In this document: positions 1 to 16,282 of the stretch, in pieces | Position numbering within the stretch: position 1 is the stretch's first letter | How the letters are laid out: each line of letters opens with the position of its first letter | Source of the DNA: Thermodesulfovibrionales bacterium | Lineage (GTDB): Bacteria > Nitrospirota > Thermodesulfovibrionia > Thermodesulfovibrionales > CALJEL01 | Assembly: GCA_046292975.1 (NCBI GenBank) | Contig: JBKBPW010000003.1 | Span: 1 to 38,473 of the forward strand | Direction: 5' to 3' | DNA: 38,473 bases | The notes under the pieces: model-generated | What the model was told of the DNA's origin: nothing | Database searches by the model: none | The model's input: the letters and a program-made list of their open reading frames with translations, nothing else | Translations under genes and position numbers: made by a program

Positions 1-237
1 AGTAGTTCAGTTCAGAGTGATTCTGGAGAGGTCTCTTCCACAAAAGTCAAGGAATTAATAAGAAAGATAATCTCTGAGGAAGATCCCTCAAGACCCCTCA
101 GTGATCAACAGATAGTTGAGATATTGAAAAATTCCAACATACACATTGCAAGAAGGACTGTATCTAAATACAGGACTGAATTAAAGATACTTTCTCAGAA
201 TCAGAGAAAAATCTTAGAAAAAAGGGAGGAGCTATGA
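1..237 (+). CDS. rpoN: RNA polymerase sigma-54 factor, C-terminal part (gene starts before the window)
   Basis: Frame 1 translates to ...EDPSRPLSDQQIVEIL...IARRTVSKYRTEL..., which is the PLSD motif plus the RpoN box. The stop TGA at 235-237 overlaps the hpf ATG (ATGA), the usual rpoN-hpf order. Confidence 0.95.
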   Translation, partial: SSSVQSDSGEVSSTKVKELIRKIISEEDPSRPLSDQQIVEILKNSNIHIARRTVSKYRTELKILSQNQRKILEKREEL

Positions 238-2166: not shown

Positions 2167-2398
2167 AATAGGCTGAAGGCTTAAGGCTGAAGGTATAGTA
2201 ATACAGGCGTCTCGCCTGTTGAAAAAGGCTGAAGAAAGTAGGCTGAAGGCTGAAAGGGCAATCCTTGTGGTTGCCTAAGATACAGGAGATAGGCTTTACT
2301 ACTGGAGAATAGGAAATAGGAGATGGGGAAATCCCTCTCTCCCATCTCCTATTGGCTATATCCTATGTAAGATGGCCAGGGACAAGCCCTGGCCCTAC
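2167..2398. repeat. Cluster of REP-like palindromes and AGGCTGA heptamer repeats
   Basis: Five AGGCTGA copies at 2170-2253. Palindromes: acaggcg-tct-cgcctgt (2203-2219), ggcaatc-cttgt-ggttgcc (2257-2275), a perfect 13-bp IR (2315-2327/2341-2353), and GTAG-GGCCAGGG-cttgt-CCCTGGCC on the minus strand (2398-2374). Confidence 0.75.
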
Positions 2399-2414
2399 TA
2401 TTTATCTATTTCCC

Positions 2415-4241
2415 TTAAGGTGCTGTTGTAAATTTATAAAGCTCACTTTCTGTTACTCCACCCTTGCCATCATCAGCTACTACCTTCCAGTAATAGGTTG
2501 TCCCATTTTGAAGCCCAGATACTGTGTAAGAAACCTCTTGAGAAGGAGGATTGCCTCCACCACCAGTACCTCCACCACCAGTACCTCCACCACCAGTACC
2601 TCCACCGCCAGTGCCTCCACCAGTACCACCACCGCTATCTCCACCACCTCCACAGGAGCCAAGAACAAGTACACCAGCAATTATTATAGCCATAATAACA
2701 ATGCCTATCCCCTTCCTCTTTCTTGATACCACCAGACTAACAACACCTCCAAATAATGCAATAGGAATTATCTGGTATAAAGAGGCAAAGGCATAACCAT
2801 GGCTGTTTGAATTGGAGGCAACTGTGATAGGTTGCACATTTGTGAAACTTTGGTCTGTTCCATAGTAAAGTTTATATTTAATTGTATCTCCATCTGGATC
2901 TGTAGATTTCGTCCACTTGAATGTAACAGCTGTGGGTAGGTTAGTAGAGCCATTAGATGGATAGATAAGTGTTGGTTTTGAAGGAGCATGGTTGGTGGTA
3001 GTTCCACCGCCTATGAACTCACCATAGACATCACACTCTGAGCTGAATATAGTGCTACCACATTTATTTATCAGAGCCAGAAAGCCAGCAGAGCTATCAT
3101 ATTCAATTATACCACCAAATTCTATACCAGCACCAGCACTGATATCAAAGGGATTGCCTATCATCATATCCTTTGTGCTTACATACCTTGCCCTTATATC
3201 CCAGCATGTCCCTTCTGTGCTGTCACAGACTCCTAAGTTAGAGGTATCTGGTGTGTAATCATTGTAGGCAACGATGAACTTTTTACCATCAAACCCTATA
3301 GTAGGAACAATCTGTGAGCCATTCTGTTTTATATAAAATGGTCCACTTATAATTTTCCCATCAGTTCCAACTATGATACCCTTAATGTCCCAGTTACCAG
3401 TTCCTGCCTGTGAGCATGGTATATAATCCGTCCCCCTCTGCTCATGGTAGGCAATTAGATAGGAACCAAGACCGAATTTAACATATGGAGGGTTATCGCT
3501 GCATCTTGGGTCTGAATCTACTTCGAATTCTACTCCTAGGGTGCCATCAGGTGCAACAAATCTTGCCATGACAATCTTGTCCTTACTATCTTCAATCCAT
3601 ACAACAAGGAAATTTGTTCCATCAAAATCTACTGCAGGCATACGACCATTACCAGAGCTTATCCTAAATTCAGGACCTACAGTGCCATCAGTTGATACAA
3701 TTCTACCAGCTATATACATGTTATCATATTTTTTTCCTTGTGATGGGTCAATAAGCTTTGTATAAACAACTAAATATTTGTTACTGCCATCAAAGGCAAT
3801 TCGTTTAACACTATCACCATCTATGCCTTTAGAACTTATAGAGAATGGTTGTCCAACGGAATTACCATTTTTATCAACAAATAATCCCCATATTTGCAGA
3901 TAACTGTAATCCCGTTGTGTATTGCCATTTGAATCTTCCCATGTCATGAGATATTTTGTTCCATCAAAGGCAACACCCGTAGCAAAGAAACCTCTCCTGC
4001 CAGTGTCAATGGTTTTCAGAATAGTTCCATCACTTTTGAATAATACAGCCTTTATAGGACCACTTACATCCCAGGTCCCTTGTGCAATACTAACAAGGAA
4101 ATTCCCGTTACCATCACCTGCTCCTGCAAGACCTATGTCAGGCACTGAAGGCTGGTTAGAGATCGGAAAAGAAAAAGAAGGACCTGAAGCAATCATGACC
4201 AGGAACATAACAGATAGAAATATCAAACTGCCTTTCCTCAT
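2415..4241 (-). CDS. Secreted, Cys-containing beta-repeat (propeller-like) surface protein with a C-terminal FN3-like domain interrupted by a transmembrane hairpin and internal lipobox
   Basis: N-terminal signal peptide and repeated (A/D/G)FDG-x-(K/N)-(Y/F)-L-(V/M) blades. C-terminus reads NHAPSKPTLIYP...FKWTKSTDPDGDTIKYKLY, then TM-RKRK-TM-LGSC-(G4T)n, then YTVSGLQNGTTYYWKVVADDGKGG...YKFTT. Confidence 0.7.
   Translation of the reverse strand: MRKGSLIFLSVMFLVMIASGPSFSFPISNQPSVPDIGLAGAGDGNGNFLVSIAQGTWDVSGPIKAVLFKSDGTILKTIDTGRRGFFATGVAFDGTKYLMTWEDSNGNTQRDYSYLQIWGLFVDKNGNSVGQPFSISSKGIDGDSVKRIAFDGSNKYLVVYTKLIDPSQGKKYDNMYIAGRIVSTDGTVGPEFRISSGNGRMPAVDFDGTNFLVVWIEDSKDKIVMARFVAPDGTLGVEFEVDSDPRCSDNPPYVKFGLGSYLIAYHEQRGTDYIPCSQAGTGNWDIKGIIVGTDGKIISGPFYIKQNGSQIVPTIGFDGKKFIVAYNDYTPDTSNLGVCDSTEGTCWDIRARYVSTKDMMIGNPFDISAGAGIEFGGIIEYDSSAGFLALINKCGSTIFSSECDVYGEFIGGGTTTNHAPSKPTLIYPSNGSTNLPTAVTFKWTKSTDPDGDTIKYKLYYGTDQSFTNVQPITVASNSNSHGYAFASLYQIIPIALFGGVVSLVVSRKRKGIGIVIMAIIIAGVLVLGSCGGGGDSGGGTGGGTGGGGTGGGGTGGGGTGGGGNPPSQEVSYTVSGLQNGTTYYWKVVADDGKGGVTESELYKFTTAP
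2554..2653 (-). repeat. 15-bp tandem repeat encoding a GGGGT linker
   Basis: cctccaccaccagta repeated on the + strand, inside the 608-aa CDS. Confidence 0.9.
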
Positions 4242-4312: not shown

Positions 4313-4341
4313 ATTATATTCTACATATTCAATGTTGTCAA
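4313..4341 (-). promoter_or_regulatory. Perfect-consensus sigma-70 promoter for the 608-aa surface protein
   Basis: Minus strand TTGACA (4341-4336), 17-nt spacer, TATAAT (4318-4313). A 5'-UTR hairpin agcttgcc-caa-ggcaagct (4266-4284) and a GAGGAGG SD follow. Confidence 0.85.
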
Positions 4342-4392: not shown

Positions 4393-6411
4393 TTACTCCT
4401 TTGTCCTCCTAAAAAATATGAGGCCTGTAAAGGCAACAATAATAATGATTGCTATTTGCGGATACTGGATGCTATAGACCAAAGGTGTAAGCATTATCCT
4501 GGTAGCTATTTTTAAGGACTCATGTCTGCTTATGATATTTGCTATAGGTGGTGATATCCTGTAATAGAATTCTACAAATCTTCTACCTATAGCATTTGTC
4601 ATAAGATATTTGTCTCTCCATACTCTTAAGATCTGCACATGTGGATTAAGGTAGCTTCCGTAAGCTGCTGTTGCAATAAAACAGCCTCCCCCACTACTTC
4701 CGCTATTACCACCTCCCCCACTACTTCCGCTGTTACCACCTCCCCCACTACTTCCGCTGTTACTTGTTATATTTGCGATAACAGAATTTGAGAGCCCTGA
4801 CTCATCTCCTGATGAATCCACAGCACTTACCTGATAGATGTAACCATTTTGAGCAGAGTTATCTGTAAAGGACAGAGATGTTGTCTGGTCAAGATATGAA
4901 CCATTTCTATAAATTTTATAATAGGATGCACCATCTACAGGGCTCCATGAAAGGGTCTTTGAATTTATTGTAAGGCCCTGAGGTGGAAGAGGGCCAAAGC
5001 CTATAAGCAGGGTTATATTGCCTCCGCTTTCATTTATATTCCTCAGATTTACCCATCCATAAGGTGTATAGGGATTGGATGAGGGATTTCCAACAGGTGT
5101 AAGGTGATTCTTCCCGGTAATTCCAGGAAATGGGTCAGAGGGGCTACCGCAGTCATCATTTCCTGAGCATCCATATTTCAGGAGATTCCAGTCACCATCT
5201 GCCTCTATGAGCTTTACTCCAGGCCTATAAAGGCTATTGTTTATAGTATTTGAATTAATATTCTGGTTTATGACATCTTCATCTATGAGCCAGACAAGAA
5301 GTCCGTGACCTGGAAGACCCTTATCAAAACCTGTTAATTGTCTGTTTTCAAGTAAAAGGTATTGATTTACTGTGGATGTTGATGCCTGAAGTTTTATTAT
5401 CTCTGGATATGTCTCAATTGGAGAAAGGATTTTCTGAACTCCATCAGAAGATATCTCCTCAGGTGTGACCCATCCGAGGTATACCTTACTCCATGCATCA
5501 GGATGGCTGGGAGAGCTACCATAGATACATGAACCGTTACTACAGGTTAAAGGGTCACTGTTATAAATTCCATCACCCATAAGACTCCACCTGCCCACTC
5601 CATCAAGAAGGCATATCAGATTTGTGCAGTAAAGATCAGGAAGCCCAAGCCAGTGAGCAAATTCATGGACATAAACTCCAAAGGGGTCAACAACTATATT
5701 ATCCTGAGAACCTGTCTGTGGCATGATGATAGCCTCTTTAATCTGCCTTCCATCTACTGTAAGGCAGTTTGTGCCAGTATCATTGGGTGATATGCATGCA
5801 TCCTGATAATAAAGAGACCAGATGTCCTTCGGTGTATCACCATTTAAATCTGTCTCCTCACCAGCACCTGCGTGAATTATGAATATGGCGTCATACTGGC
5901 TGAAATCAATATCGCTATCTGCCTGAGTGATACTGTCATATATGAGGTTTTCAAGGGCACTGTAACTCTCATCACCATAATAGGACATTGAATGGGGAAG
6001 GATATAGATCTTCTGAGATATAGTGATATTAACTTGGAGTTTTCCATATGATGCCTCTGACCAGTAATTGATAAATTTATCCTTTGCATTATTCAACCAG
6101 TAATCAGGATCATTATTCGGGCATCCTGTCTGGGAGCCACACCATTGCCATGTTCCATTTCCTGTAGTCTGAGGGTCATCAGGAGATTCATTCTGAAACT
6201 GGACCCTTAAGAATAACACATTCACAGTAGCTGGATACTGAATCGGTGCAAATAATGCCATTGGCATCTTTTTAGCGAGCCTTTCTTTTATAGGAATGCC
6301 AGGTCTTTCAACAGGCTCCTTTTTTGTCTTTGTGATATGGGGTGCTCCAAAAACTAATGAGTGCAAAAAGAACAAAGATATAATAAATAAAACCCTTATG
6401 CCCGCTATCAT
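4393..6411 (-). CDS. M6-family (immune inhibitor A-like) metalloprotease with an FN3-like domain and a CFI-box C-terminal domain
   Basis: Signal peptide; [49 protein letters not shown]-terminal [14 protein letters not shown]...LRVWRD..L...GRRFV.FYY..SPPIA followed by a TM segment and basic tail. Confidence 0.9.
4685..4763 (-). repeat. 27-bp tandem repeat (about 3 copies) encoding an NSGSSGGGG linker
   Basis: cctcccccactacttccgctRttacca x3, immediately N-terminal to the CFI box. Confidence 0.9.
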
Positions 6412-7123: not shown

Positions 7124-9109
7124 TTATCTCCTCAAGCCCTTTGCCTTCTTTGGTGCAAACATTCCAAAGGCACCATCATGCCAGAGCTCAAGATTAGGAT
7201 CATGGGCCTTAACCGTAACACTTCCGTTTGTCTCAACTACTATATCAGCAACTGCAAACCAGGCATTCGGATTATGACCTCCTTCATGATCGGAGGCTGT
7301 ATATGTGCAGTTGTAAGGCCCAAATATGGAATCGCCTATTTGGATTGTCACTGTATTGGACACTGTAACAGGACAGCTCCAGTTGTTCATAGATACAACA
7401 TAATACCCTGGAAGTAGCACAGTGGCTGTGAAATGCTCAAGACCACCCTTAGTGTTATCATAGTCTTTCCCATTTATGTCAAGACCAACATCAGCAATCC
7501 CATCACCTGTTATGTCCAAGTATTGTTCAAAATCAGAAACACCATCTCCATTAATATCGGGATTACTTCCATCCTTCTGGTGCCAATCAATATACCATGT
7601 GCCTTTAGTGGTGCTTGTCGGAGTCGTTGTGTTGTAGTAATTGACATGGATATCGGTATAGCACTTCAGGAGTCCATTCGGATCTGAATCTTTTGAGGAA
7701 GATGTGATTGTCATTGTATTGCCTGTAGTAGTCCCACCTGTCCCGCTTGGTGGAGGTGTCTCCTCATCCATTGTCTCAAAATCACAGAGTTGTGCAAGCT
7801 CGTCTTCACTGGCATAATTAGTAGTCTCTCCTGAATCCTGCTGACCATTATTGTTTGCATCAAACCATACTGTTACGGTGTCATCATTGTTCCATATAAT
7901 ATGGGTGTTGGTATTGATAGTGATGTGACCACTAATTGGACCCTTATTATCTCCATGGACATTATGAATAGGTGCCACTGTGTTAAATACAAAGGTCCCC
8001 TCAAAGCATGTGTCAGGTGTGAAGTCAGAAGCCACAGTTCCGCTTACTTTAATATCATCATAGGTGTTTGTTCCTGTGGAATCAAGTTTGAAATTACTAT
8101 ACATTATAGACACACTATTTTGATTCCCTGCCTCTGTCCAGCTTTCACTAAACTTTCCATTTGTGGTTATAGAAGCAGTATAGGTTCCCGTGGTAGTATT
8201 GAAATTGTATTCAAAGTCATTCTTAAGGTTTGTGAATGTCATGCTGTAGTCAGCATTATCAAGGTAGTCGTGAATACTCATTGAGCCATTGATAGTCATT
8301 GCCGTTGTTCCACTTGTTTGTGACCCTGATATTGTATAGGCTGTCTGAAGACCTGACATGCTCATCTTTGAAACCAGTGTCGCATAGTTATTTTCAAATT
8401 CAAGGATTGTAAATGGACTATTCTGGTTGCCAAAGGTCTCTGTAAATGTATATCCTGTCTGAGAGGCTGAACCAGTAAGATAAACAGGTCCGTTAAACTG
8501 AGCATCGCCTTCCCTGCAGTTATCAAATGTCATATCCAGATTAAAGGTATCGTCAAGGGGATTATCTGGTGTATTGTTATCATTACGGGAGCCGCTGTAG
8601 GTAAAGGTCCCACCATTATTACAATTTTTTGTACCTGGTCCTATGGGTGTAACAGTCTTCATTGTCATTGCCTTTTTAAGTGCATCTGCTGCAGCCATTA
8701 CTGCCTTTGACTTCGCAAACTTGCCTGAGAGCTTGATTGCCTTTGCCATACCAGGGTCAGGTTTGAGGGACTCTGGCATCTTAAACTCAGGTGCACTACC
8801 TACAAGACCACTTAACCCCAAATTTCCGAGATTTTGAAATGTAGTTGTGCTTCCATGTGCCATTGCTCCAGCCTGCCCAGCTGTTGAGGCAGCTTGAGTT
8901 GCCTGCTGGTTGTTGGATATCTGTGTTCCACCACCTCCTGTTCCACCACCGCCTGTTCCACCACCACCGCCTGTTCCACCACCACCTGTTCCACCACCGC
9001 CTGTTCCACCACCGCCTGTTCCACCACCGCCACCTCCGCAGGCAGTGAAGATAAGGCTAAGGCTGGCAAATATTACCAGAAGCAAAATAAATAGCTTAAA
9101 CCTCTTCAT
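7124..9109 (-). CDS. Large lipoprotein with a Gly/Thr tether, beta-rich domains and Ca-binding-like DxDxDG motifs
   Basis: Lipobox IFTA-C followed by (GGGGT)n; CNNGG...FDNC; DANNNGQQDSGE, DINGDGVSDFE, DITGDGIAD. AGGAGG SD upstream. Confidence 0.8.
   Translation of the reverse strand: MKRFKLFILLLVIFASLSLIFTACGGGGGGTGGGGTGGGGTGGGGTGGGGGTGGGGTGGGGTQISNNQQATQAASTAGQAGAMAHGSTTTFQNLGNLGLSGLVGSAPEFKMPESLKPDPGMAKAIKLSGKFAKSKAVMAAADALKKAMTMKTVTPIGPGTKNCNNGGTFTYSGSRNDNNTPDNPLDDTFNLDMTFDNCREGDAQFNGPVYLTGSASQTGYTFTETFGNQNSPFTILEFENNYATLVSKMSMSGLQTAYTISGSQTSGTTAMTINGSMSIHDYLDNADYSMTFTNLKNDFEYNFNTTTGTYTASITTNGKFSESWTEAGNQNSVSIMYSNFKLDSTGTNTYDDIKVSGTVASDFTPDTCFEGTFVFNTVAPIHNVHGDNKGPISGHITINTNTHIIWNNDDTVTVWFDANNNGQQDSGETTNYASEDELAQLCDFETMDEETPPPSGTGGTTTGNTMTITSSSKDSDPNGLLKCYTDIHVNYYNTTTPTSTTKGTWYIDWHQKDGSNPDINGDGVSDFEQYLDITGDGIADVGLDINGKDYDNTKGGLEHFTATVLLPGYYVVSMNNWSCPVTVSNTVTIQIGDSIFGPYNCTYTASDHEGGHNPNAWFAVADIVVETNGSVTVKAHDPNLELWHDGAFGMFAPKKAKGLRR
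8926..9037 (-). repeat. 15/18-bp tandem repeat encoding a GGGGT tether
   Basis: gttccaccaccgcct repeated about 6 times. Confidence 0.9.
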
Positions 9110-9219: not shown

Positions 9220-10380
9220 TTACCAGCCTATATTAAAAAATACAAGGTGTCTTCTATCACTATCCTGACCTGAGTAGGCACCTACCTCCTCTGCATAGGT
9301 CACATAGGATACTGTAAAGAGCAAGAGCCTGAGGTCAGCTCCAAAGGTAGCATATCCCTGATAGAGCCCTGTCCTGAGCCCGAGGCTCATGAGCTTTCTG
9401 TCAATAAGGTAAAGCTCTCCACCAAGCCTGAGCCTCTTTGGTATATCACTATCCTGCTCATAGTTATTTAAGATATCCACATAGTCAATCCCGAATGTAA
9501 AGGAGTCAAATACAGGTATCTCTGGATTTATTGATGCACCAAGATTTACTGTCATGGGGATTTTTCCTGCTGCACCAAATTTCAGGTCTCCTATATTCAT
9601 AATGCTCAGGCCTGCAGAAGGCCTTAACCATGAATCCTGATAGAATTTATAAAGCATACCAAGGTCAGCTCCAATGGCATCTCCACTCTTTCTGAGTTCT
9701 TCTGTGATATAGTTTTCAAGATTATCCTGCTTTTCTACTATCTCCCTTGCTGTAAAAGAATGGACAAGGGTTTCGCGATGGAGTGCCTTTATTCCAAGAC
9801 CTCCGTAAAACCCCTTTCCTAAATCAATACTCATGCCTAAAATACCTCCACCTGTGAGGTCCGAATTTATCTCAAGAAGACCATTAGAGCCAAATCCCTG
9901 ATGGGTCATGGCATCAAGCCTTGCCCTTGCTATGCCACCAATAGCCAGTGCCCAGGAGCCCTGATTCCTGCCAATAGAGGACCAGTCTGCAATTCCAAGA
10001 TGTAGGTTCTTCCCCCTGTATTTTGCAAGGACATCATTTACAGCCATTAACTGATCATCACCTTCGTCACCATCTCCATCACGATCACCAACATCAAAGG
10101 CATCTCCCATATCAGATACAAAGTCAATTACATTTTTGCCTATGTCTGCTGATATACCAATGAGGTTGACCTCAAAATTCTTCTCAGGCATGTTGCTTAA
10201 TGTAGCAGGGTTGTAAAAGACTGCATCTGTCCTTCCACCTATGGCAATATAGGCACCACCCATACCCATTGCCCTTGGTGACTTATAAAGATAGGGATAT
10301 TCCCTTATAGTTGGCTCCTCAGCATAGGCAAGAGAGGAAATAATGACCAGAAATATTATTGTAAATAAAAGCCTCTTCAT
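9220..10380 (-). CDS. Outer-membrane beta-barrel, TraF-like / FadL-PorV superfamily
   Basis: Signal peptide; SPRAMGMGGAY...VFYNPA N-terminal motif; alternating amphipathic strands; LRTGLYQGYATFG; C-terminal aromatic beta-signal (FNIGW). Confidence 0.75.
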   Translation of the reverse strand: MKRLLFTIIFLVIISSLAYAEEPTIREYPYLYKSPRAMGMGGAYIAIGGRTDAVFYNPATLSNMPEKNFEVNLIGISADIGKNVIDFVSDMGDAFDVGDRDGDGDEGDDQLMAVNDVLAKYRGKNLHLGIADWSSIGRNQGSWALAIGGIARARLDAMTHQGFGSNGLLEINSDLTGGGILGMSIDLGKGFYGGLGIKALHRETLVHSFTAREIVEKQDNLENYITEELRKSGDAIGADLGMLYKFYQDSWLRPSAGLSIMNIGDLKFGAAGKIPMTVNLGASINPEIPVFDSFTFGIDYVDILNNYEQDSDIPKRLRLGGELYLIDRKLMSLGLRTGLYQGYATFGADLRLLLFTVSYVTYAEEVGAYSGQDSDRRHLVFFNIGW

Positions 10381-10394
10381 AATCGCCTCCTAAT

Positions 10395-11507
10395 TTACTG
10401 AATATTCTGAAGGTTTATGTTCTTAATATAATCTGCTATCTCACCAGAGGTGCAGTTATCACCACCACAAGCCTCAGTTTTTATCTGGTTTATTGAATTT
10501 ACAACATCCTCACTAACACCTGGAAGGGCATTACCCATTGAATCAATCATTGATTGGACTGCTTCATCAATAGCACTTACAAGGTCAAGGGGCTGACCAT
10601 TCTGTTCAATAGGGCAGGGCCATTTGTTATTATTGTTATTATTATAATTATCTTCGCAGACTGTTCCACCTGTGGTTGTTGCGACCCAGTAGTTATTGGA
10701 ACTATCTTTATAAAGAAGCTTCTTTCTATATAAATCATCCATAGGGCATCCTGATGACGGACCACTACCCGTAATATTAACAATAAGGCCTTTATAATAT
10801 CCGCTATAAGTAATATTATTATTTTGAGTATTTTTTAAAGTGAGTCGATTACCCGGAGGGGCATCTGGAGACCATGAAATAGTAACTACTCCATGTCCGT
10901 TATTTCCGTTTAAGGATGAGCAATCAGGAGGCTGGTTATTAAAAAGCTGGGCACTCACCAGTAAGGCACAGGCAGTAGCATCCACATCATCAGGGACTTC
11001 GTTACCATTTATATCACATTCTGTAAGGAGCTGGCCATCTCCATCAGAATCTATAACTATCTTTAATAAGCTTAAGGTCTTCATTGCCTGAACAAGGCTC
11101 AGATAAAACTGGGCATCGTTATAATAAGGAGAATCAGGAGGAACATTACCATATTCTGTTTTTGCATTGTCAAGGTTTGTAAGGGTTGTCTCATCTACCT
11201 TTGGAACAAGTGCCTTCATATACAAATCAATAGGTTCTACATTTTGATTCTGGTTCTGTGCCTCGGAAAGCCTGTTTATAACATCCTTAACATCAAAGCC
11301 CGCCTTACCAAAATAGGCAGCTCCCTTATCCATTGAAGAGGCACAGGATGAACTTATGACTGCATCATAGTTGCCACTGTCAAGGTCTTTGCTTACTTTA
11401 TACTGGCAAGCCTCTTGAGAACTGTCATTAGCAATGAATTGGAAGGCACTGTCTCCACAGGAATTTAAAAGTAGTAAAATAAGCACAAAAAATACTAAAA
11501 GCCTCAT
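10395..11507 (-). CDS. Cys-rich lipoprotein of unknown function
   Basis: Lipobox LLNS-C; helical N-terminal half (AAYFGKAGFD); about 10 further Cys; DSDGDG motif; 14 bp upstream of the TraF-like barrel. Confidence 0.75.
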   Translation of the reverse strand: MRLLVFFVLILLLLNSCGDSAFQFIANDSSQEACQYKVSKDLDSGNYDAVISSSCASSMDKGAAYFGKAGFDVKDVINRLSEAQNQNQNVEPIDLYMKALVPKVDETTLTNLDNAKTEYGNVPPDSPYYNDAQFYLSLVQAMKTLSLLKIVIDSDGDGQLLTECDINGNEVPDDVDATACALLVSAQLFNNQPPDCSSLNGNNGHGVVTISWSPDAPPGNRLTLKNTQNNNITYSGYYKGLIVNITGSGPSSGCPMDDLYRKKLLYKDSSNNYWVATTTGGTVCEDNYNNNNNNKWPCPIEQNGQPLDLVSAIDEAVQSMIDSMGNALPGVSEDVVNSINQIKTEACGGDNCTSGEIADYIKNINLQNIQ

Positions 11508-11571
11508 ATCATTCTCCTTTCTGGCACAAGGCCAATTTATGTTTTAAGGCCTAAAAGGCCTTCTATGTTTT

Positions 11572-12831
11572 TTAAAAAGAATAGCCACCTCCTATAAAGA
11601 CCGTAATTGAGTCTATCCTTACATCCTGAATAGCAGTGGAATTAGGTATAACCTGGGCATCTCCTATCCCATAAGTATATATAGCACCGAGGGTTAAGCT
11701 TGAATTTCTTGTAAAGTATGTGATACTCATGGTTGTCCCATAATTATCCACATGTTCAATTTGATTTACTCCTCCTGGCTTCACAGAAGGTGTGTTTGCC
11801 CTATCAGTGAAAAGACCAAACCTAAGGGCAAGGGATGGTGATAGATAATACTCTGCACCAATTGCACCATTAATGACAGCCTCATAATTTTCTACAGAAC
11901 TATAATATTGAAGGTCTACTGAAACCAAAAAGGAAGGTGAAGGAAAATAGGCAATCCCGAGCTTTGTCTCAAAAGGAAAATCCCTCTTTCTTGAAGACTC
12001 CTGAACTGTAAAATATACATCGTTTGAACCGTAACCAGAACTTGAAGGTCCTCTTACAGTTATCTGCACCCTGGACTCAGAGTCAAATAAGAATGTCCTT
12101 GCCACAGTAAATCCCAGGGATACTTTATCCACTGGAGAAAACATAAGACCAATAATAGGCCTTATCCCATATTCCTTCCGGGAGAGATAATAATTCTCCC
12201 AGTCAAACTCTCCATTGCTGAGATTTAAAAGATGATTTCTTATAAATTTACGATCCCTGTAATAAAAATAAAGGGTCGCACCTGCAGAAAGGTTATCGCC
12301 GAGCTTAATTGCATAGGAAGGTCCGAAGTTATAGGCATCGTCTACATCATCAATATTGAGGACATATCTATCAATAGTAACACCAGGGATTGCAGATCTT
12401 ATATCCCTGAAGACCTGCTCTTGATCCCTGCTAACTGAGTCTGTAACTGCATAAGAAAAACCCGCTATCCCAGGGCCAAATTTCTGTATTACACCAAAGA
12501 AATTTGGTATAAGCCTTGATGACTTGAGTTCCCAGTCCTCACCCTCACCAGTGGTCTTATGAAGGGCATCCTTAAAGGTCTTTGTAGAGATATTATAGGC
12601 ATTAACACTTATAGATATCCTTCTTGCTGATGCAAAGGCAATTCCAGCAGGATTATAAAAACAACCTGATGGATCATCAGAAACAGCTGTATAGGCACCT
12701 CCCATGCCTGCTGCCCTTTCTCCAGGGATGGAGTTAATATAATGATGCTCATCAGCAAGTGAGAAGGAGCTCATGGCAAGGATTGAGACTACGATGAGAA
12801 ATAAAAAACTACTTAACCCTCGTCTTTTCAT
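11572..12831 (-). CDS. OmpP1/FadL (PorV-like) outer-membrane beta-barrel
   Basis: Signal peptide; GERAAGMGGAYTAVSDDPSGCFYNPAG; C-terminal GGGYSF beta-signal. Confidence 0.85.
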   Translation of the reverse strand: MKRRGLSSFLFLIVVSILAMSSFSLADEHHYINSIPGERAAGMGGAYTAVSDDPSGCFYNPAGIAFASARRISISVNAYNISTKTFKDALHKTTGEGEDWELKSSRLIPNFFGVIQKFGPGIAGFSYAVTDSVSRDQEQVFRDIRSAIPGVTIDRYVLNIDDVDDAYNFGPSYAIKLGDNLSAGATLYFYYRDRKFIRNHLLNLSNGEFDWENYYLSRKEYGIRPIIGLMFSPVDKVSLGFTVARTFLFDSESRVQITVRGPSSSGYGSNDVYFTVQESSRKRDFPFETKLGIAYFPSPSFLVSVDLQYYSSVENYEAVINGAIGAEYYLSPSLALRFGLFTDRANTPSVKPGGVNQIEHVDNYGTTMSITYFTRNSSLTLGAIYTYGIGDAQVIPNSTAIQDVRIDSITVFIGGGYSF

Positions 12832-13639
12832 AGAACCTATCCTTTAATAAAGTTCCTTCCTTACCAGCAAGCTGGTTTTTGTTTATAAATTGTTCTATTT
12901 CCCTAATCCTGTGCTCAAGCCCTGGATGGGTGCCCTGTATCTCCTTTTCATAACCCTTCTCTAAGAGTCTTTTTAAAAATCTCAAAAGTCCTGATGAATC
13001 ATAGCCTGTAGTGGCAAGAAGACCTGTTGCTATAGTATCTGAAGATAGTTCATCTTCCCTCTTATATCCCCTTTCAAAGAGTATCTCATAGGCCTTATCT
13101 ATAAAGGTGGTAAATAATGCCTCTGCTGAGCCTGTTGCTCCAGAGATAAGACTTGCAAATCCTAAGAGGGGTGATTCATCAGGTGCCCTGAGGTTTATCT
13201 CCTTTACAATATGCCTCTCTGTAACATGGGCTATCTCATGCCCAAGGACACCTGCAAGCTCTGCCTCATCATCCATTGCCATGAGTGCTCCTTTTGTAAT
13301 AAAGATATATCCACCTGGTGCTGAGAAGGCATTTATTTTGTCTGTATCAAGGATCCCAAAATGGAATTCTATCTCTGGCCTTCCAGCATGCTGGGCAAGG
13401 GCCCTGCCAATAAGATTGATATATTCAGTAAGCGTCCTATCCTTTAATAAGGGGTATCTGCCAAGTATCCTTTCAGAGAGGGAACGGCCAAATATAATCT
13501 CTGCCTTTATATCATCCTCTGTTTTGTAGGCCTCTTCTTCAGAGGTCTGGGACAGTCTCTTTCTGAAATCCTCTCCATAGGCATTATGAAGAAAGATAGT
13601 AAAAAGGAGGGTTATGATTATACTTATTTTTAATATCAT
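12809..13639 (-). CDS. Exported M48-family metallopeptidase (BepA/LoiP-like)
   Basis: INAFSAPGGYIFITKG, ELAGVLGHEIAH, REDELSSD, THP...RI; signal peptide. Confidence 0.92.
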   Translation of the reverse strand: MILKISIIITLLFTIFLHNAYGEDFRKRLSQTSEEEAYKTEDDIKAEIIFGRSLSERILGRYPLLKDRTLTEYINLIGRALAQHAGRPEIEFHFGILDTDKINAFSAPGGYIFITKGALMAMDDEAELAGVLGHEIAHVTERHIVKEINLRAPDESPLLGFASLISGATGSAEALFTTFIDKAYEILFERGYKREDELSSDTIATGLLATTGYDSSGLLRFLKRLLEKGYEKEIQGTHPGLEHRIREIEQFINKNQLAGKEGTLLKDRFYEKTRVK

Positions 13640-14127
13640 CTCTTCATACCTTCCTCAAGAAACTTTATTGCCTCTTCATCACTTACATGGATGGCCTCAA
13701 GCCATCTGAGACTTTCAGGATCAATCCTGTAGCGGTCACTAAGCCTTGCCCTCTCCTCCATAAGACCCCTTGCTGCTGCAGCTGTTACAAAAGCAGAGGC
13801 CCTTTTCCTTGCACCATGCTGTAATTCCTCCTCAGAGGTCTCAATTATGGAGAGCCTCTTTGAAGGTGGTTTTGTATCAACTACAAATGCAGATACCCAT
13901 CCGGAAATATCTTTATATCTAACCCTGTACCACCTGTCCTTCTTTTCAACACCATATAAAACCTCTCCCCTTTCAACCTTTACAAGCTCCTTTGCACCCA
14001 TAAGAGGTTCAGAGAGGATTGATGCCTTTATGCTCTGGACATAAAGTTTGATCTCCTCTGCATAAAGGCTGGGGCAAAGGACAAGGGTTAGTATGATAAC
14101 CATTAATGGTGTTCCTCTTTTAAACAT
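13636..14127 (-). CDS. Exported SH3-domain protein
   Basis: Signal peptide; WYRVRY..ISGWVS bacterial SH3-like motif; TAAAARGL segment; ATGA overlap with the M48 gene. Confidence 0.8.
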   Translation of the reverse strand: MFKRGTPLMVIILTLVLCPSLYAEEIKLYVQSIKASILSEPLMGAKELVKVERGEVLYGVEKKDRWYRVRYKDISGWVSAFVVDTKPPSKRLSIIETSEEELQHGARKRASAFVTAAAARGLMEERARLSDRYRIDPESLRWLEAIHVSDEEAIKFLEEGMKR

Positions 14128-14137
14128 ATCACACCTC

Positions 14138-16282
14138 CTATTTTTCCATTACCTCCCACACACCATCCCATGATGGTTCCGGTTCTTTCTTCATAAAATA
14201 TGTGATCCTTTCTATAAATATCCTCGGAACAGTATCACCAAGGCTCAATTCCTCCATCTCCTTATACATAGCCAGGGCCTCCTGCCACCTTCTGCTTAAA
14301 TAATACTCCAATGCCTGCTCTGAAAGCAAGGTAATTTTACCATTGCTATCACCTTCCATTAATGGTTCAAATATCTTAACAGGTTTCACCTTACCCTTTA
14401 CCCTGACAACATCAATAGGTCTCAATAAGACCCTTGTCTTAACCCTTTGTGCTGTATCCTCAGAGATTATAATGGGAACCCTGTATAACCTTGTTAAACC
14501 CTGAAGTCTTGAGGCAAGATTAACATTGTCTCCAATAACTGTATAGTCAAGCCTCTTTGGGGAGCCGATATTCCCGAGTATTACCTCTCCTGTATGAATA
14601 CCTGTGCCTGTTTTAAGTTCTGGAAGTCCTTTTTCTTTAAGTATCCTGTTGACCTCTGCCATTTCCCTCTGGATCTGAAGACTGCTCATAACTGCCCTCA
14701 GGGCATGGTCTTCCATCCTGACAGGTGCTCCCCAGAATGCCATTATACAATCTCCCATAAATTTGTCAATGGTGCCCTCATACCGAAAGATTATCTCAAC
14801 AGCCCTTTCAAAATATATATTCAAGGCCTCCACTATATCCTCAGCAGGATATCTTTCAGAAAGGCTTGTAAAACCTTCTATGTCAGAAAAAAGCACTGTA
14901 AGCTCAACCCTTATACCCCTTTCAGCAAGTAAAAGGGACCCCTTTTTCTCAGATATGCCTGCAATTACTGCAGAGGAGACATATCTTTCAAACATCTCCT
15001 TTATTCTCCTCTTTTCTTTTTCTTCTGTTAGACTTAAATAGGTAAAGGCTGTAACAAAGGAGAGGATTCCTGAGGTAAGGGGTGCTGCCATCTCCATAAC
15101 AAAATTCAGTTTGAAGGCTATAAGAGACAGAAGGATATATAGGACAAGGGGTAGTAGTGAAAGTATGATTTTTAATCCAAAAGACCTGATCGTCAAGACC
15201 ATATAATTTATGAAAAAGGCCATTATTATAATTGATAGTCCTGTAAGGATTCCCGGTGACCATCTCAAAAAATCTTCTGTTAAGATATTTCCATATATGG
15301 AGGCATGAAGAAGAACCCCGGGTATCATAGCAGAAAGGGGAGTTGGCTTAAGGTCTTCCACCCCAACAGCACTTGCACCTATAAATACAACCTTTTTATT
15401 AAACTCATCAGGACTTACAGGAAGACCTTCTATATTACCCCTTTTTATCTTATGTATTGAGGCAAGGATACCGCTCATGGAATAGGGCTCAAATCCACCA
15501 TAAAGATTTATGATATAAAGGCCATTGTAAAGGGGGATTTTTTTAATACCTGAAGCTGTCTGCAATAAAAGGCTGTTTTTCTCTTCCTTAATGAGGTAAT
15601 CGGGTTCTATCAGAGGAGCAATAGAAAGCACAGGAAAATGGCTGCCATGATAGGTCCTTATGAGTTTGGTCCTTCTGTAGACGCCATCCTTATCAGATTT
15701 GAACTCTACAATGCCTATACCTTTTGAGGCTCTATAGAGTTCCCTGAAGGGTATGGCATAATTATTATTTTCTTTTATATGGATAAGTCTCACATTAGTA
15801 AGACCGAACATCCTCTGGAAATCTTCTGGAAGTTTTTTATCAAGGATATCCCTGTTCCACTCATCAGGTATATCCTTGAATATCTGAGCTGCATGATAGA
15901 CATTGCCTGCACCCTTGGTAGATTCCACAAGGGCACTATCATTTGCACTGAGCATACCTGGGGGTGCTTCATAAATCCTCTCATTCTCTGTAAAGAGAAT
16001 ATCAAAGACTATCGCCCTTGCACCACCAAGCCTCAGGAAATCAATTACATCAGCATGGACAGACCTTGGCCAGGGCCATCTTCCTGATATGGAGTTCATA
16101 AGTTTAAGAGAGGCCTCATCAATAAGAATAACTGATATTTCATCAGGAGGTTTTTTGCTGCTTCTTATTATCTTTACCCTCATATCATAAAGCATAAGCT
16201 CAGGTCTCTCGAAAAAACCATAATGCCAGAGAAGTGCTATAGATATGAAGATAGGTAGGGCTATCAAAAATTTCCATCTCAT
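14138..16282 (-). CDS. CHASE2-domain class III adenylate cyclase
   Basis: IDEASL...GRWPWPRSVHA, FDILF, DKDGVYRR, PGVLLHA (CHASE2); three TM segments; FSDIEGFT, DKFMGDCIMAFWG, YTVIGDNVNLASRL (Lys/Thr specificity residues of class IIIb ACs); C-terminal WDGVW. Confidence 0.93.
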   Translation of the reverse strand: MRWKFLIALPIFISIALLWHYGFFERPELMLYDMRVKIIRSSKKPPDEISVILIDEASLKLMNSISGRWPWPRSVHADVIDFLRLGGARAIVFDILFTENERIYEAPPGMLSANDSALVESTKGAGNVYHAAQIFKDIPDEWNRDILDKKLPEDFQRMFGLTNVRLIHIKENNNYAIPFRELYRASKGIGIVEFKSDKDGVYRRTKLIRTYHGSHFPVLSIAPLIEPDYLIKEEKNSLLLQTASGIKKIPLYNGLYIINLYGGFEPYSMSGILASIHKIKRGNIEGLPVSPDEFNKKVVFIGASAVGVEDLKPTPLSAMIPGVLLHASIYGNILTEDFLRWSPGILTGLSIIIMAFFINYMVLTIRSFGLKIILSLLPLVLYILLSLIAFKLNFVMEMAAPLTSGILSFVTAFTYLSLTEEKEKRRIKEMFERYVSSAVIAGISEKKGSLLLAERGIRVELTVLFSDIEGFTSLSERYPAEDIVEALNIYFERAVEIIFRYEGTIDKFMGDCIMAFWGAPVRMEDHALRAVMSSLQIQREMAEVNRILKEKGLPELKTGTGIHTGEVILGNIGSPKRLDYTVIGDNVNLASRLQGLTRLYRVPIIISEDTAQRVKTRVLLRPIDVVRVKGKVKPVKIFEPLMEGDSNGKITLLSEQALEYYLSRRWQEALAMYKEMEELSLGDTVPRIFIERITYFMKKEPEPSWDGVWEVMEK

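What the first reader, a model, noticed from the sequence alone, without database searches (positions are those of the whole stretch)
2415..2993. FN3 domain split by a transmembrane hairpin with an internal lipobox: possible novel anchoring by strand complementation
Seen: the first FN3-like strands (NHAPSKPTLIYP...FKWTKSTDPDGD.IKYKLYYG) are followed by TM1, RKRK and TM2 ending in LGS-C (Cys codon 2654-2652). A (G4T)n tether and the remaining FN3 strands (YTVSGLQNGTTYYWKVVADD...YKFTT) come after that. TM2 with its basic n-region looks like a complete lipoprotein signal peptide embedded near the C-terminus. Inference: Lgt/LspA processing would give a ~60-aa lipopeptide that completes the FN3 fold of the large N-terminal fragment. 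That would be a non-covalent lipid anchor made from one gene, and cleavage near TM1 could release the complex from the inner membrane.
Basis: partly seen in the sequence, partly recalled or inferred. Interest (0 to 1): 0.8.

Follow-up and report, generated by a model that had tools for sequence, protein, structure and literature searches.

The report
Lipo-invert tail splitting an FN3 domain
The end of this secreted bacterial protein is a small beta-sandwich domain interrupted by two membrane helices, the second of which looks like a lipoprotein signal; it is a widespread tail that NCBI already lists as a putative C-terminal lipid anchor, and I found no experimental test of it.

Summary
Gene 2415..4241 (-), 608 aa, has a Sec signal, a beta-propeller, then an FN3 domain interrupted by TM1, RKRK, TM2 and the lipobox LGS-C530, a (G4T)n tether and the last FN3 strands.

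It is not a one-off. The same C-terminal module ends unrelated secreted proteins in 49 distinct copies from Nitrospirota, Desulfuromonadales, Gammaproteobacteria and other groups. In all 49 the Cys is present and the residue before it is S, A or G.

AlphaFold2 joins the two halves into one FN3 (pLDDT 93-98; Z 10.7 to solved FN3 domains). The genome encodes Lgt, LspA, Lnt, LolCE and LolA.

NCBIfam NF058595 'invert_tail' (lipo-invert putative C-terminal anchoring domain) matches 8 of 8 aligned modules. P0001 scores 29.7 bits, below the 37-bit cut-off. This scan already holds 29 notes on this tail in at least 18 genomes. No paper was found.

Best reading (0.6): Lgt/LspA processing leaves a 79-aa lipopeptide that completes the FN3 and holds the passenger. 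How TM1 is removed is unknown. Verdict: a new, sub-threshold member of a catalogued but untested kind.

The parts
4313..4341 (-). Promoter-like site (TTGACA, 17-nt spacer, TATAAT; 12 of 12 matches) about 70 nt upstream of the ATG
   Evidence: This is a consensus match only.
2415..4241 (-). Whole gene, 608 aa plus stop (P0001)
4170..4241 (-). N-terminal Sec-type signal peptide, about aa 1-24
   Evidence: Read from the translation (basic n-region, hydrophobic core, small residues). No predictor was run.
2994..4169 (-). Passenger: beta-propeller domain, aa 25-416, with no Pfam or NCBIfam family
   Evidence: AlphaFold2 gives pLDDT 88.5 and pTM 0.91, all-beta. Foldseek's best hits are propellers, e.g. 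7fh6 at E 7.3e-9, TMq 0.70. Relatives at 50-64% identity carry other C-terminal domains.
2814..2993 (-). FN3 half 1 (strands A-C'), aa 417-476
   Evidence: pLDDT 93-98. Aligned to solved FN3 domains. Collinear with the first part of uninterrupted FN3 repeats.
2724..2789 (-). TM1, aa 485-506 (N-out, C-in)
   Evidence: Hydrophobic stretch. Helix at module residues 82-95 in the model. Across the family this segment is Gly-rich and only weakly hydrophobic.
2712..2723 (-). Cytoplasmic basic loop RKRK, aa 507-510; it also serves as the n-region of the internal signal
   Evidence: In the family the loop is 2-8 aa long and holds 2-6 K/R, in 47 of 47 modules.
2655..2711 (-). TM2, the h-region of a lipoprotein-type signal peptide, aa 511-529
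   Evidence: Model positions 45-100 of NF058595 also match ordinary N-terminal lipoprotein signals.
2652..2663 (-). Lipobox L-G-S-C (aa 527-530); Cys530 codon at 2654-2652
   Evidence: The Cys is invariant in A1 and present in 49 of 49 copies.
2553..2651 (-). Gly-rich tether, aa 531-563, including a 15-bp tandem repeat (2554-2622, 4.6 copies)
2418..2552 (-). FN3 half 2 (strands E-F-G), aa 564-608, running to the C-terminus
   Evidence: Pfam fn3 at 28.3 bits against a cut-off of 25. pLDDT 94-98. FN3 alignments run to residue 199 of the model.
2374..2394 (.). G+C-rich stem-loop (8 pairs) 21 nt after the stop codon
   Evidence: The scan scored it as a terminator on the + strand; on the gene's own strand no T-run follows it.

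Best explanation
P0001 is a Sec-exported beta-propeller protein that ends in a 'lipo-invert'-type anchoring tail. Proposed path, all inferred. The passenger and FN3 strands A-C' cross the inner membrane. TM1 stops transfer and RKRK stays in the cytoplasm. TM2 re-inserts N-in/C-out like a lipoprotein signal peptide, so the tether and strands E-F-G are also outside. Lgt then lipidates Cys530, LspA cuts before it and Lnt acylates the new N-terminus. The 79-aa lipopeptide (Cys530-Pro608) supplies the three missing strands of the FN3 sandwich, so the large fragment is held near its C-terminal end on a lipid anchor without a covalent link. TM1 is glycine-rich across the family. It is probably removed by an unidentified membrane protease, after which the two-chain complex could be passed to the outer membrane by Lol. 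Shown here: the architecture, its conservation, the predicted single fold, and the presence of the enzymes. Inferred: every processing step and the final location.
For: Architecture and coordinates are confirmed.

Conservation: 7 of 7 same-order ORFs inspected carry the module. There are 49 distinct copies, all with the Cys. The residue before the Cys is S in 27, A in 21 and G in 1. Position -3 is L/F/I/V in 40 of 49. The stretch from the last basic residue to the Cys is 13-20 aa in 48 of 49 (the frameshifted L047 gives 5). The tail always ends 24-30 aa after the YYW motif. P0001's module contains only this one Cys, so a disulfide role within the module is excluded.

TM2 passes the same lipobox rule that picks out 41 candidate N-terminal signals in this genome. 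The part of the NF058595 model covering TM2 also hits ordinary N-terminal lipoprotein signals followed by poly-Gly (6 cases: L103, L104, L108, L110, L111, L114). The neighbouring lipoprotein P0003 has the same Cys-(G4T)n start.

Fold: the two halves are modelled as one domain at pLDDT 93-98. The model aligns over 8..199 to single solved FN3 domains at Z 10.7, rmsd 2.2-2.4 A, 92-100 residues. The halves match consecutive parts of one uninterrupted FN3 repeat, e.g. query 1-74 with subject 30-105 and query 168-195 with subject 122-149.

As two separate chains: weak support. Score 0.57, best of 3 controls 0.00. The mark was reached by 58 of 80 solved complexes and 2 of 110 mismatched pairs, but at 0.60 or under by only 7 of those 80 solved complexes and by both mismatches that passed. 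The runs agree in at least 93% of contacts and the partner's pLDDT is at least 65. My own alignment was used, and the pass may come from memory of the FN3 fold.

Enzymes encoded: lspA at 108.7 bits and lgt at 185.8 bits, lnt at 369.4 bits, lolCE at 401 bits and LolA at 86.5 bits.

Family: NF058595 matches 8 of 8 aligned modules. The tail sits on unrelated passengers, namely Laminin_G_3 plus ASH Ig arrays, SBBP repeats, a chondroitinase-B-like domain, and a propeller. That portability is what a sorting or anchoring signal shows.

TM1 is 20% Gly against 5% in TM2, with mean hydropathy 1.39 against 2.33 (n = 47, related sequences).
Against: No member of this family has been tested, and I found no paper on it. 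I also found no documented case of Lgt/LspA acting on an internal signal peptide (listing only).

After an LspA cut the large fragment would still carry TM1, the basic loop and the TM2 remnant, so the lipid is redundant unless TM1 is removed. No candidate enzyme stands out. No gene neighbour is conserved across 44 loci. No exosortase was found in this 89%-complete genome. No rhombosortase scored over the cut-off in 0 of 61 related genomes. The only rhomboid found is an ordinary one.

P0001 scores below NCBI's cut-off (29.7 against 37 bits). Its TM1 lacks the family's YAG.G motif and has only 2 Gly in 22 residues.

The two-chain prediction is only weak. The insert itself is modelled at pLDDT below 50-60.
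Confidence: 0.6

Rival explanations
1. The hairpin is an uncut membrane anchor. TM1 and TM2 simply fix the loop of an intact FN3 in the inner membrane, and the lipobox is not used, or the Cys is lipidated without separating the chains.
For: The topology fits: a basic loop inside and both FN3 halves outside. The fold is predicted as one chain. No internal LspA substrate was found in print. An uncut hairpin needs no extra protease, which fits the failure to find one.
Against: A plain second helix has no need for an invariant Cys, a small residue before it in 49 of 49 copies, or a fixed 13-20-aa distance from the basic loop. These are the constraints of Lgt/LspA substrates. Profile scoring does not separate TM2 plus poly-Gly from genuine lipoprotein signals. 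Large adhesin-like passengers held in the inner membrane of a diderm cell would not reach the surface.
Confidence: 0.17
2. The internal signal peptide splits one gene into two independent products: an inner-membrane-anchored passenger (via TM1) and a small free lipopeptide. The two do not stay together.
For: The lipobox evidence is the same as for the best explanation. The two-chain prediction is only weak.
Against: Neither half of an FN3 sandwich could fold alone, yet both halves keep the FN3 core residues across the family: W34, Y47 and Y174-W-K-V are invariant in A1. The insert always sits at the same loop of the last domain. Selection therefore acts on the assembled domain.
Confidence: 0.12
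3. It is an artefact or a decaying gene: an assembly chimera, a fusion of a gene with a C-terminal sorting signal to the start of a lipoprotein gene, or a pseudogene.
For: The tether is a tandem repeat. Some relatives are broken just after the basic loop (L047, L081) or lack the Cys (L089).
Against: The frame is open over 608 codons. The same layout occurs in 49 copies from many assemblies. Metagenome contigs cover the stretch with no indels. Outside the Gly codons, the DNA of TM2 and the tether is not a recent copy of the neighbour's N-terminus.
Confidence: 0.03

Closest known systems
NCBIfam NF058595.1 'invert_tail': lipo-invert putative C-terminal anchoring domain (release 20.0, June 2026)
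   Same: TM helix, basic cluster, lipoprotein-signal-like helix ending in Cys, near the C-terminus of large secreted proteins. All 8 aligned modules match it (best E 2.5e-9). P0001 module residues 65-137 match model positions 16-88 of 113. Of the five full-length-type matches listed in five other genomes (one of them, L099, above the cut-off), I inspected four, and all four are the same split-FN3 tail.
   Different: P0001 scores 29.7 bits against a cut-off of 37, so NCBI's pipeline would probably not name it. In this order only 1 of 61 genomes has a copy over the cut-off. I saw only the model's name, not its curator text, so I cannot say whether the split-domain idea is already written down.
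Classical N-terminal bacterial lipoprotein signal peptides (Lgt, LspA, Lnt; Lol sorting)
   Same: Basic n-region, 19-aa hydrophobic core, lipobox LGS-C and Gly at +2. It passes the same rule as 41 candidate signals in this genome. The pathway genes are present.
   Different: The signal is internal, 506 residues from the start, and is preceded by another membrane helix. The 'mature' lipoprotein would be only 79 aa and could not fold on its own.
Tripartite C-terminal sorting signals with dedicated sortases: MYXO-CTERM/myxosortase, GlyGly-CTERM/rhombosortase, PEP-CTERM/exosortase
   Same: TM1 plus an Arg/Lys cluster looks like such a signal. They share the Gly-rich helix, the small-residue motif before it (family consensus yAG.G) and attachment to many kinds of passenger. 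MYXO-CTERM also has an invariant Cys that is predicted to be lipidated before cleavage and export to the surface (abstract of PMC11980579).
   Different: TM1 is not at the C-terminus; a second helix and half a domain follow it. Here the Cys lies after the membrane helix, not before it. No rhombosortase was found (0 of 61 genomes over the cut-off) and no exosortase.
Insulin receptor / IGF-1R fibronectin domain with the insert domain and furin site
   Same: An FN3 domain carries a long insert that is cut, so the mature domain is built from two chains. These receptors' FN3 domains are among the top structural matches (rows 4, 5 and 15, Z 10.4-10.6). The insert and its furin cleavage into alpha and beta chains are described in passages of PMC7039211.
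   Different: That case is eukaryotic, the insert is disordered and not membrane-spanning, and cleavage is by furin. That the insert lies inside the second FN3 domain, and that the chains are also disulfide-linked, is recalled and not seen in a call.
Fold completion by a strand from another chain (donor-strand complementation in chaperone-usher pili; engineered split Ig-like domains)
   Same: An Ig-like sandwich is completed by strands from a separate polypeptide, giving a very stable non-covalent joint. This comparison is recalled, not tested here.
   Different: Here both parts come from one gene and would be separated by a signal peptidase, and three strands would be supplied rather than one.

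Membership tests
NCBIfam NF058595 invert_tail (lipo-invert C-terminal anchoring domain) | Significant match to the family profile | tested here: met
   E 6.6e-7 for the P0001 module; 8 of 8 aligned modules match.
NCBIfam NF058595 invert_tail (lipo-invert C-terminal anchoring domain) | Score at or above the curated cut-off (37 bits) | tested here: not met
   29.7 bits. The whole-genome scan listed no match for this gene at E <= 0.01. Most copies in this order also fall below the cut-off; 1 of 61 genomes is over it.
NCBIfam NF058595 invert_tail (lipo-invert C-terminal anchoring domain) | Layout: TM helix, basic loop, signal-like helix ending in a lipobox Cys, close to the C-terminus | tested here: met
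   aa 485-506, 507-510, 511-529 and C530, with 78 residues remaining after the Cys. The order is the same in 49 copies.
NCBIfam NF058595 invert_tail (lipo-invert C-terminal anchoring domain) | Actual lipidation and anchoring | not testable with these tools
   Needs labelling, globomycin treatment and mass spectrometry. No paper was found.
Bacterial lipoprotein signal peptide (Lgt/LspA substrate) | Basic n-region, uncharged h-region, lipobox [LVI][ASTVI][GAS]C (rule recalled, PROSITE-like) | tested here: met
   The sequence from R507 passes the regular expression, with the Cys at position 24.
Bacterial lipoprotein signal peptide (Lgt/LspA substrate) | Located at the N-terminus of the precursor | tested here: not met
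   It starts at residue 507 of 608.
Tripartite C-terminal sorting signal (GlyGly-CTERM, MYXO-CTERM, PEP-CTERM type) | Motif, TM helix and basic cluster at the extreme C-terminus | tested here: not met
   98 residues follow the basic cluster. Other CTERM models gave only weak hits to single members: JDVT-CTERM at 0.0036 and MXAN_2561 at 0.058.
Tripartite C-terminal sorting signal (GlyGly-CTERM, MYXO-CTERM, PEP-CTERM type) | Cognate sortase encoded in the genome | tested here: inconclusive
   No exosortase/archaeosortase match in G000, which is 89.3% complete. No rhombosortase over the cut-off in 0 of 61 genomes. CPBP/myxosortase was not searched.
Fibronectin type III domain (PF00041) | Profile match and seven-strand sandwich fold | tested here: met
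   fn3 at 28.3 bits against a cut-off of 25, on half 2 only. The model aligns to solved FN3 domains at Z 10.7, rmsd 2.2-2.4, 92-100 residues, range 8..199.

The most novel reading that the evidence does not exclude
One gene makes a two-chain lipoprotein. LspA cuts at Cys530 and an unidentified intramembrane protease removes the glycine-rich TM1. The passenger is then held only by beta-strand complementation to a triacylated 79-aa peptide that Lol carries to the outer membrane. That would give diderm bacteria a C-terminal lipid anchor for large surface proteins and would be the first natural use of an internal lipoprotein signal. The tail would also behave as a swappable cassette. Close relatives of the passenger carry other C-termini. 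Contigs in the source-type metagenome match the module and then diverge at its borders (a weak hint).
Probability: 0.3. Interest if true: 0.8.

Novelty: new member of a known kind. Interest (0 to 1): 0.45.

Why it matters
Diderm bacteria are known to lipid-anchor proteins only at the N-terminus. A tail that turns the chain round in the membrane, uses the housekeeping lipoprotein machinery on an internal signal, and holds the passenger through a split FN3 would be a new route for fastening large adhesin- or enzyme-like proteins by their far end. It would also be a natural split-domain system of use in protein engineering. For this scan the practical point is different. The module is real, widespread and easy to test, but it is already catalogued by NCBI and has been reported many times by the scan, so this window adds only another example. 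One useful observation for annotation: the NCBIfam model's cut-off misses most FN3-type copies in this order, with only 1 of 61 genomes over it.

Tried and rejected
- **Profile search of 1.84 billion representatives with the whole module.** Multi-FN3 proteins swamped it. Of the 150 rows listed, the only single-stretch, full-length match at a C-terminus was P0226. It gave no usable census.
- **Plasmid megablast of the gene.** No match.
- **Literature.** 'lipo-invert' gave 0 papers. Searches for lipoprotein signal peptide / transmembrane hairpin / FN3 and for internal or C-terminal lipobox gave listings with nothing relevant by title or abstract. A search for the cytochrome bc1 polyprotein as a precedent for an internal signal peptide gave 0 papers, so that precedent remains recalled only.
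- **Dedicated TM1 protease.** No gene cluster recurs beyond sets of orthologous loci across 44 module loci. No same-strand ORF follows within 300 nt in most loci, this window included. Exosortase was not found, no rhombosortase scored over the cut-off, and the single rhomboid is generic.
- **Natural two-gene split.** NF058595 hits with stop codons in same-genus genomes are ordinary N-terminal lipoprotein signals. The short ORFs L047 and L081 are frameshifts and L089 is a remnant. The 6 short proteins found with residues 507-608 are truncated fragments.
- **Tat-type signal.** Rejected. RR is not conserved in the loop (e.g. RKKK, RKGK, KNSRK, and RKRK here), and half a domain could not be exported folded.
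- **Recent copy of the neighbour's lipoprotein N-terminus.** Rejected. The DNA agrees only in the Gly codons and the repeat units differ.
- **Expression.** No RNA holder was listed.
- **Insert-less construct.** The two-chain prediction was used instead.
Full report
**1. What is there**

The finding lies in one open frame, window 2415..4241 on the minus strand, 608 aa (P0001). Reading the translation and locating motifs gives this layout:

| Element | Residues | Notes |
|---|---|---|
| Sec-type signal | about 1-24 | by inspection |
| Passenger domain | 25-416 | beta-propeller |
| FN3 half 1 | 417-476 | first strands |
| Short linker | 477-484 | |
| TM1 | about 485-506 | |
| Basic loop RKRK | 507-510 | |
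| TM2 | 511-529 | |
| Lipobox L-G-S-C | 527-530 | Cys codon 2654-2652 |
| Gly-rich tether | 531-563 | includes 4.6 copies of a 15-bp tandem repeat |
| FN3 half 2 | 564-608 | runs to the stop codon |

The one error is that the fragment starting at the Cys is 79 aa long, not about 60.

A 12-of-12 sigma-70 consensus lies at 4341-4313, just upstream of the start. A G+C-rich stem-loop follows the stop, and no same-strand gene follows. The gene therefore looks monocistronic.

**2. The passenger**

AlphaFold2, run on an alignment of 32 relatives, gives an all-beta domain (pLDDT 88.5, pTM 0.91). Its best Foldseek matches are beta-propellers, led by CylK 7fh6 at E 7.3e-9 and TMq 0.70. Pfam and NCBIfam name nothing in it.

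The closest relatives of the passenger (P0005-P0008, 50-64% identity over 76-80% of the query) end in two other Ig-like domains and have no membrane helices. In two same-genus genomes the match likewise stops at residues 463-468. The tail has therefore been exchanged as a unit.

**3. The tail is a conserved module**

Searching 60 related genomes with P0001 gave many hits that cover residues about 412-535 and 555-606 at the ends of otherwise unrelated large ORFs. All 7 ORFs I read out show the same order of parts:

- FN3 half 1
- a hydrophobic helix
- an Arg/Lys cluster
- a second helix ending in a small residue plus Cys-Gly
- a short linker
- FN3 half 2
- stop

In the 8-sequence alignment A1 the Cys is invariant, and so are FN3 core residues in both halves.

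A scan of one genome per species found 214 relatives among 598 pattern matches. The best 80 were kept as 79 loci. My script examined L006-L012 and L018-L096. It looked only at FN3 half-2 motifs within 40 aa of a stop codon. It found 49 distinct copies with a hydrophobic stretch ending in Cys:

- The residue before the Cys is S in 27, A in 21 and G in 1.
- Position -3 is L/F/I/V in 40 of 49.
- Position +2 is G in 33 of 49.
- The last basic residue lies 13-20 residues before the Cys, except in the frameshifted L047.
- The protein ends 24-30 residues after the YYW motif.

Eight rows lacked the hairpin. Five are plain FN3 domains (L044, L050, L059, L068, L069; those with a phylum label are Bacteroidota records). 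Two are chance matches in L077. One is a Cys-less remnant, L089.

The named hosts are MAGs labelled Nitrospirota/Nitrospirae, Desulfuromonadales/Geobacteraceae, Gammaproteobacteria, Deferribacteres, Ignavibacteriaceae and others.

Passengers differ: Laminin_G_3 plus ASH-type Ig arrays, SBBP repeats, and a chondroitinase-B-like domain. In the window's own genome, which is 89.3% complete, P0001 is the only copy.

**4. The two halves make one FN3**

AlphaFold2 on A1 models module residues 11-66 and 160-199 at pLDDT 93-98. The insert is modelled as two helices at low confidence.

The model aligns over 8..199 to single solved FN3 domains, with best Z 10.7, rmsd 2.2-2.4 A and 92-100 aligned residues. 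Of 998 chains aligned, 463 reached Z >= 8.

By BLASTP the two halves match consecutive parts of one uninterrupted FN3 repeat in Bacteroidota proteins. For example, query 1-74 pairs with subject 30-105 and query 168-195 with subject 122-149. About 94 query residues thus stand where the subject has 17. The insert sits in the loop between strands C' and E.

Folded as two separate chains (1-72 and 121-199), the pair got weak support:

- Score 0.57, best of 3 controls 0.00.
- The mark was reached by 58 of 80 solved complexes and 2 of 110 mismatched pairs.
- At 0.60 or under it was reached by only 7 of those 80 solved complexes and by both mismatches that passed.
- The runs agree in at least 93% of contacts and the partner's pLDDT is at least 65.
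- My own alignment was used, and the pass may reflect memory of the FN3 fold.

**5. TM2 behaves like a lipoprotein signal**

Read from R507, the sequence passes a PROSITE-like lipobox rule (the rule itself is recalled). The same rule finds 41 candidate N-terminal signals in six-frame ORFs of this genome.

In five other genomes, partial matches to NF058595 (model positions about 45-100) are ordinary N-terminal lipoprotein signals followed by poly-Gly. The four matches inspected that also cover TM1 are split-FN3 tails.

The neighbouring gene P0003 (7124..9109, minus strand) starts with a lipobox Cys followed by (G4T)n. The DNA shows no recent copying between the two genes.

The genome encodes lspA and lgt, lnt, lolCE and LolA. 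A FadL-type outer-membrane protein gene lies in the window.

**6. TM1 looks like a sorting-signal helix**

Across 47 complete modules, TM1 is 20% Gly against 5% in TM2, with mean hydropathy 1.39 against 2.33. The loop between the helices is 2-8 aa long and holds 2-6 Lys/Arg (the sequences are related, so the paired test overstates significance). A yAG.G motif precedes TM1 in the consensus. P0001 is atypical here: its motif reads YAFAS and its TM1 has only 2 Gly.

No processing enzyme could be tied to TM1:

- No conserved neighbour.
- No exosortase found.
- No rhombosortase over the cut-off in 0 of 61 genomes.
- The one rhomboid found is generic.

**7. What is known**

NCBIfam NF058595.1 'invert_tail', described as 'lipo-invert putative C-terminal anchoring domain-containing protein', matches all 8 members of A1. 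P0001 scores 29.7 bits (E 6.6e-7) against a cut-off of 37. In this order only 1 of 61 genomes has a copy over the cut-off.

I found this match before opening the scan's notes. Those notes then showed the same module in another Nitrospirota genome, and 29 notes in at least 18 genomes that reach the same reading.

The 'lipo-invert' search returned no paper, and the two broader searches listed nothing relevant. I could not see the model's curator text.

The nearest experimentally studied systems are the tripartite C-terminal signals, for example MYXO-CTERM with myxosortase (abstract read). The insulin receptor's cleaved insert domain is a precedent for an FN3 built from two chains (passages read; the position of the insert within the second FN3 domain is recalled).

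**8. Mechanism and verdict**

The best reading (confidence 0.6) is that Lgt, LspA and Lnt act on the internal signal. The 79-aa lipopeptide then completes the FN3, so the passenger is lipid-anchored near its C-terminus without a covalent bond. TM1 is presumably removed by an unknown protease before Lol transport.

The rivals are:

- an uncut hairpin anchor (0.17)
- two products that separate (0.12)
- an artefact or pseudogene (0.03)

The invariant Cys and the small residue before it argue against the first. Conservation of both half-domains argues against the second. Recurrence across many assemblies, together with metagenome contigs that cover the stretch without indels, argues against the third.

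Overall this is a real and biologically interesting tail. It is a sub-threshold new member of a kind that NCBI has catalogued, for which I found no experimental test, and that this scan has already reported repeatedly.

Noticed in passing
window 4393..6411 (-): The upstream neighbour P0002 is an M6-like metalloprotease (TIGR03296, 139 bits). It has a (GGGGNSGSS)x3 tether encoded by a 27-bp tandem repeat (4685-4763) and ends in a CFI-box-CTERM domain (NF041770, 107.9 bits against a cut-off of 40). That is a second, different putative C-terminal sorting tail next door.
   Followed up: partly
window 7124..9109 (-): P0003 is a 661-aa lipoprotein with no Pfam or NCBIfam family. Its lipobox Cys is followed by about seven G4T units encoded by a 15-bp tandem repeat (8924-9031). 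Only 2 of the 41 candidate lipoprotein signals in the genome have such a Gly run after the Cys.
   Followed up: partly
window 2402..3013: In contigs of metagenome run X1, summed depth over the module (about 30-147) is higher than over the flanks (8.6-17). Contigs match the module and then diverge at 2996 and 3010 and at 2414 and 2431. This suggests that near-identical tails sit on other genes or strains in that community, i.e. the tail is exchanged as a cassette. It is a weak hint, because the contigs are short and depths are summed over organisms.
   Followed up: partly
L047 about 3200-3260; L081 about 3250-3300: Two module genes from other MAGs change reading frame just after the basic loop between TM1 and TM2. 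These could be sequencing errors in purine runs or real breaks. No proper start codon follows, so they are not natural two-gene versions.
   Followed up: partly
L007 2028-2711, L010, L011, L040 (also L032, L036): In Nitrospirota loci whose passenger is an SBBP-repeat protein, a 221-228-aa gene with an N-terminal membrane helix overlaps the tail gene's stop by 4 nt. It has no Pfam family and is not found next to other passengers.
   Followed up: partly
window 9220..16282 (-): Further upstream on the same strand are two ORFs without a significant Pfam family, a FadL/TodX-type outer-membrane protein, an M48 peptidase, and a CHASE2-adenylate/guanylate cyclase. Any link to the tail gene is unknown.
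   Followed up: no
G000 versus the P0001 protein: The whole-genome scan with NF058595 did not list P0001 at E <= 0.01, whereas hmmscan on the translated module gives E 6.6e-7. Genome scans with this model therefore under-count divergent copies.
   Followed up: no
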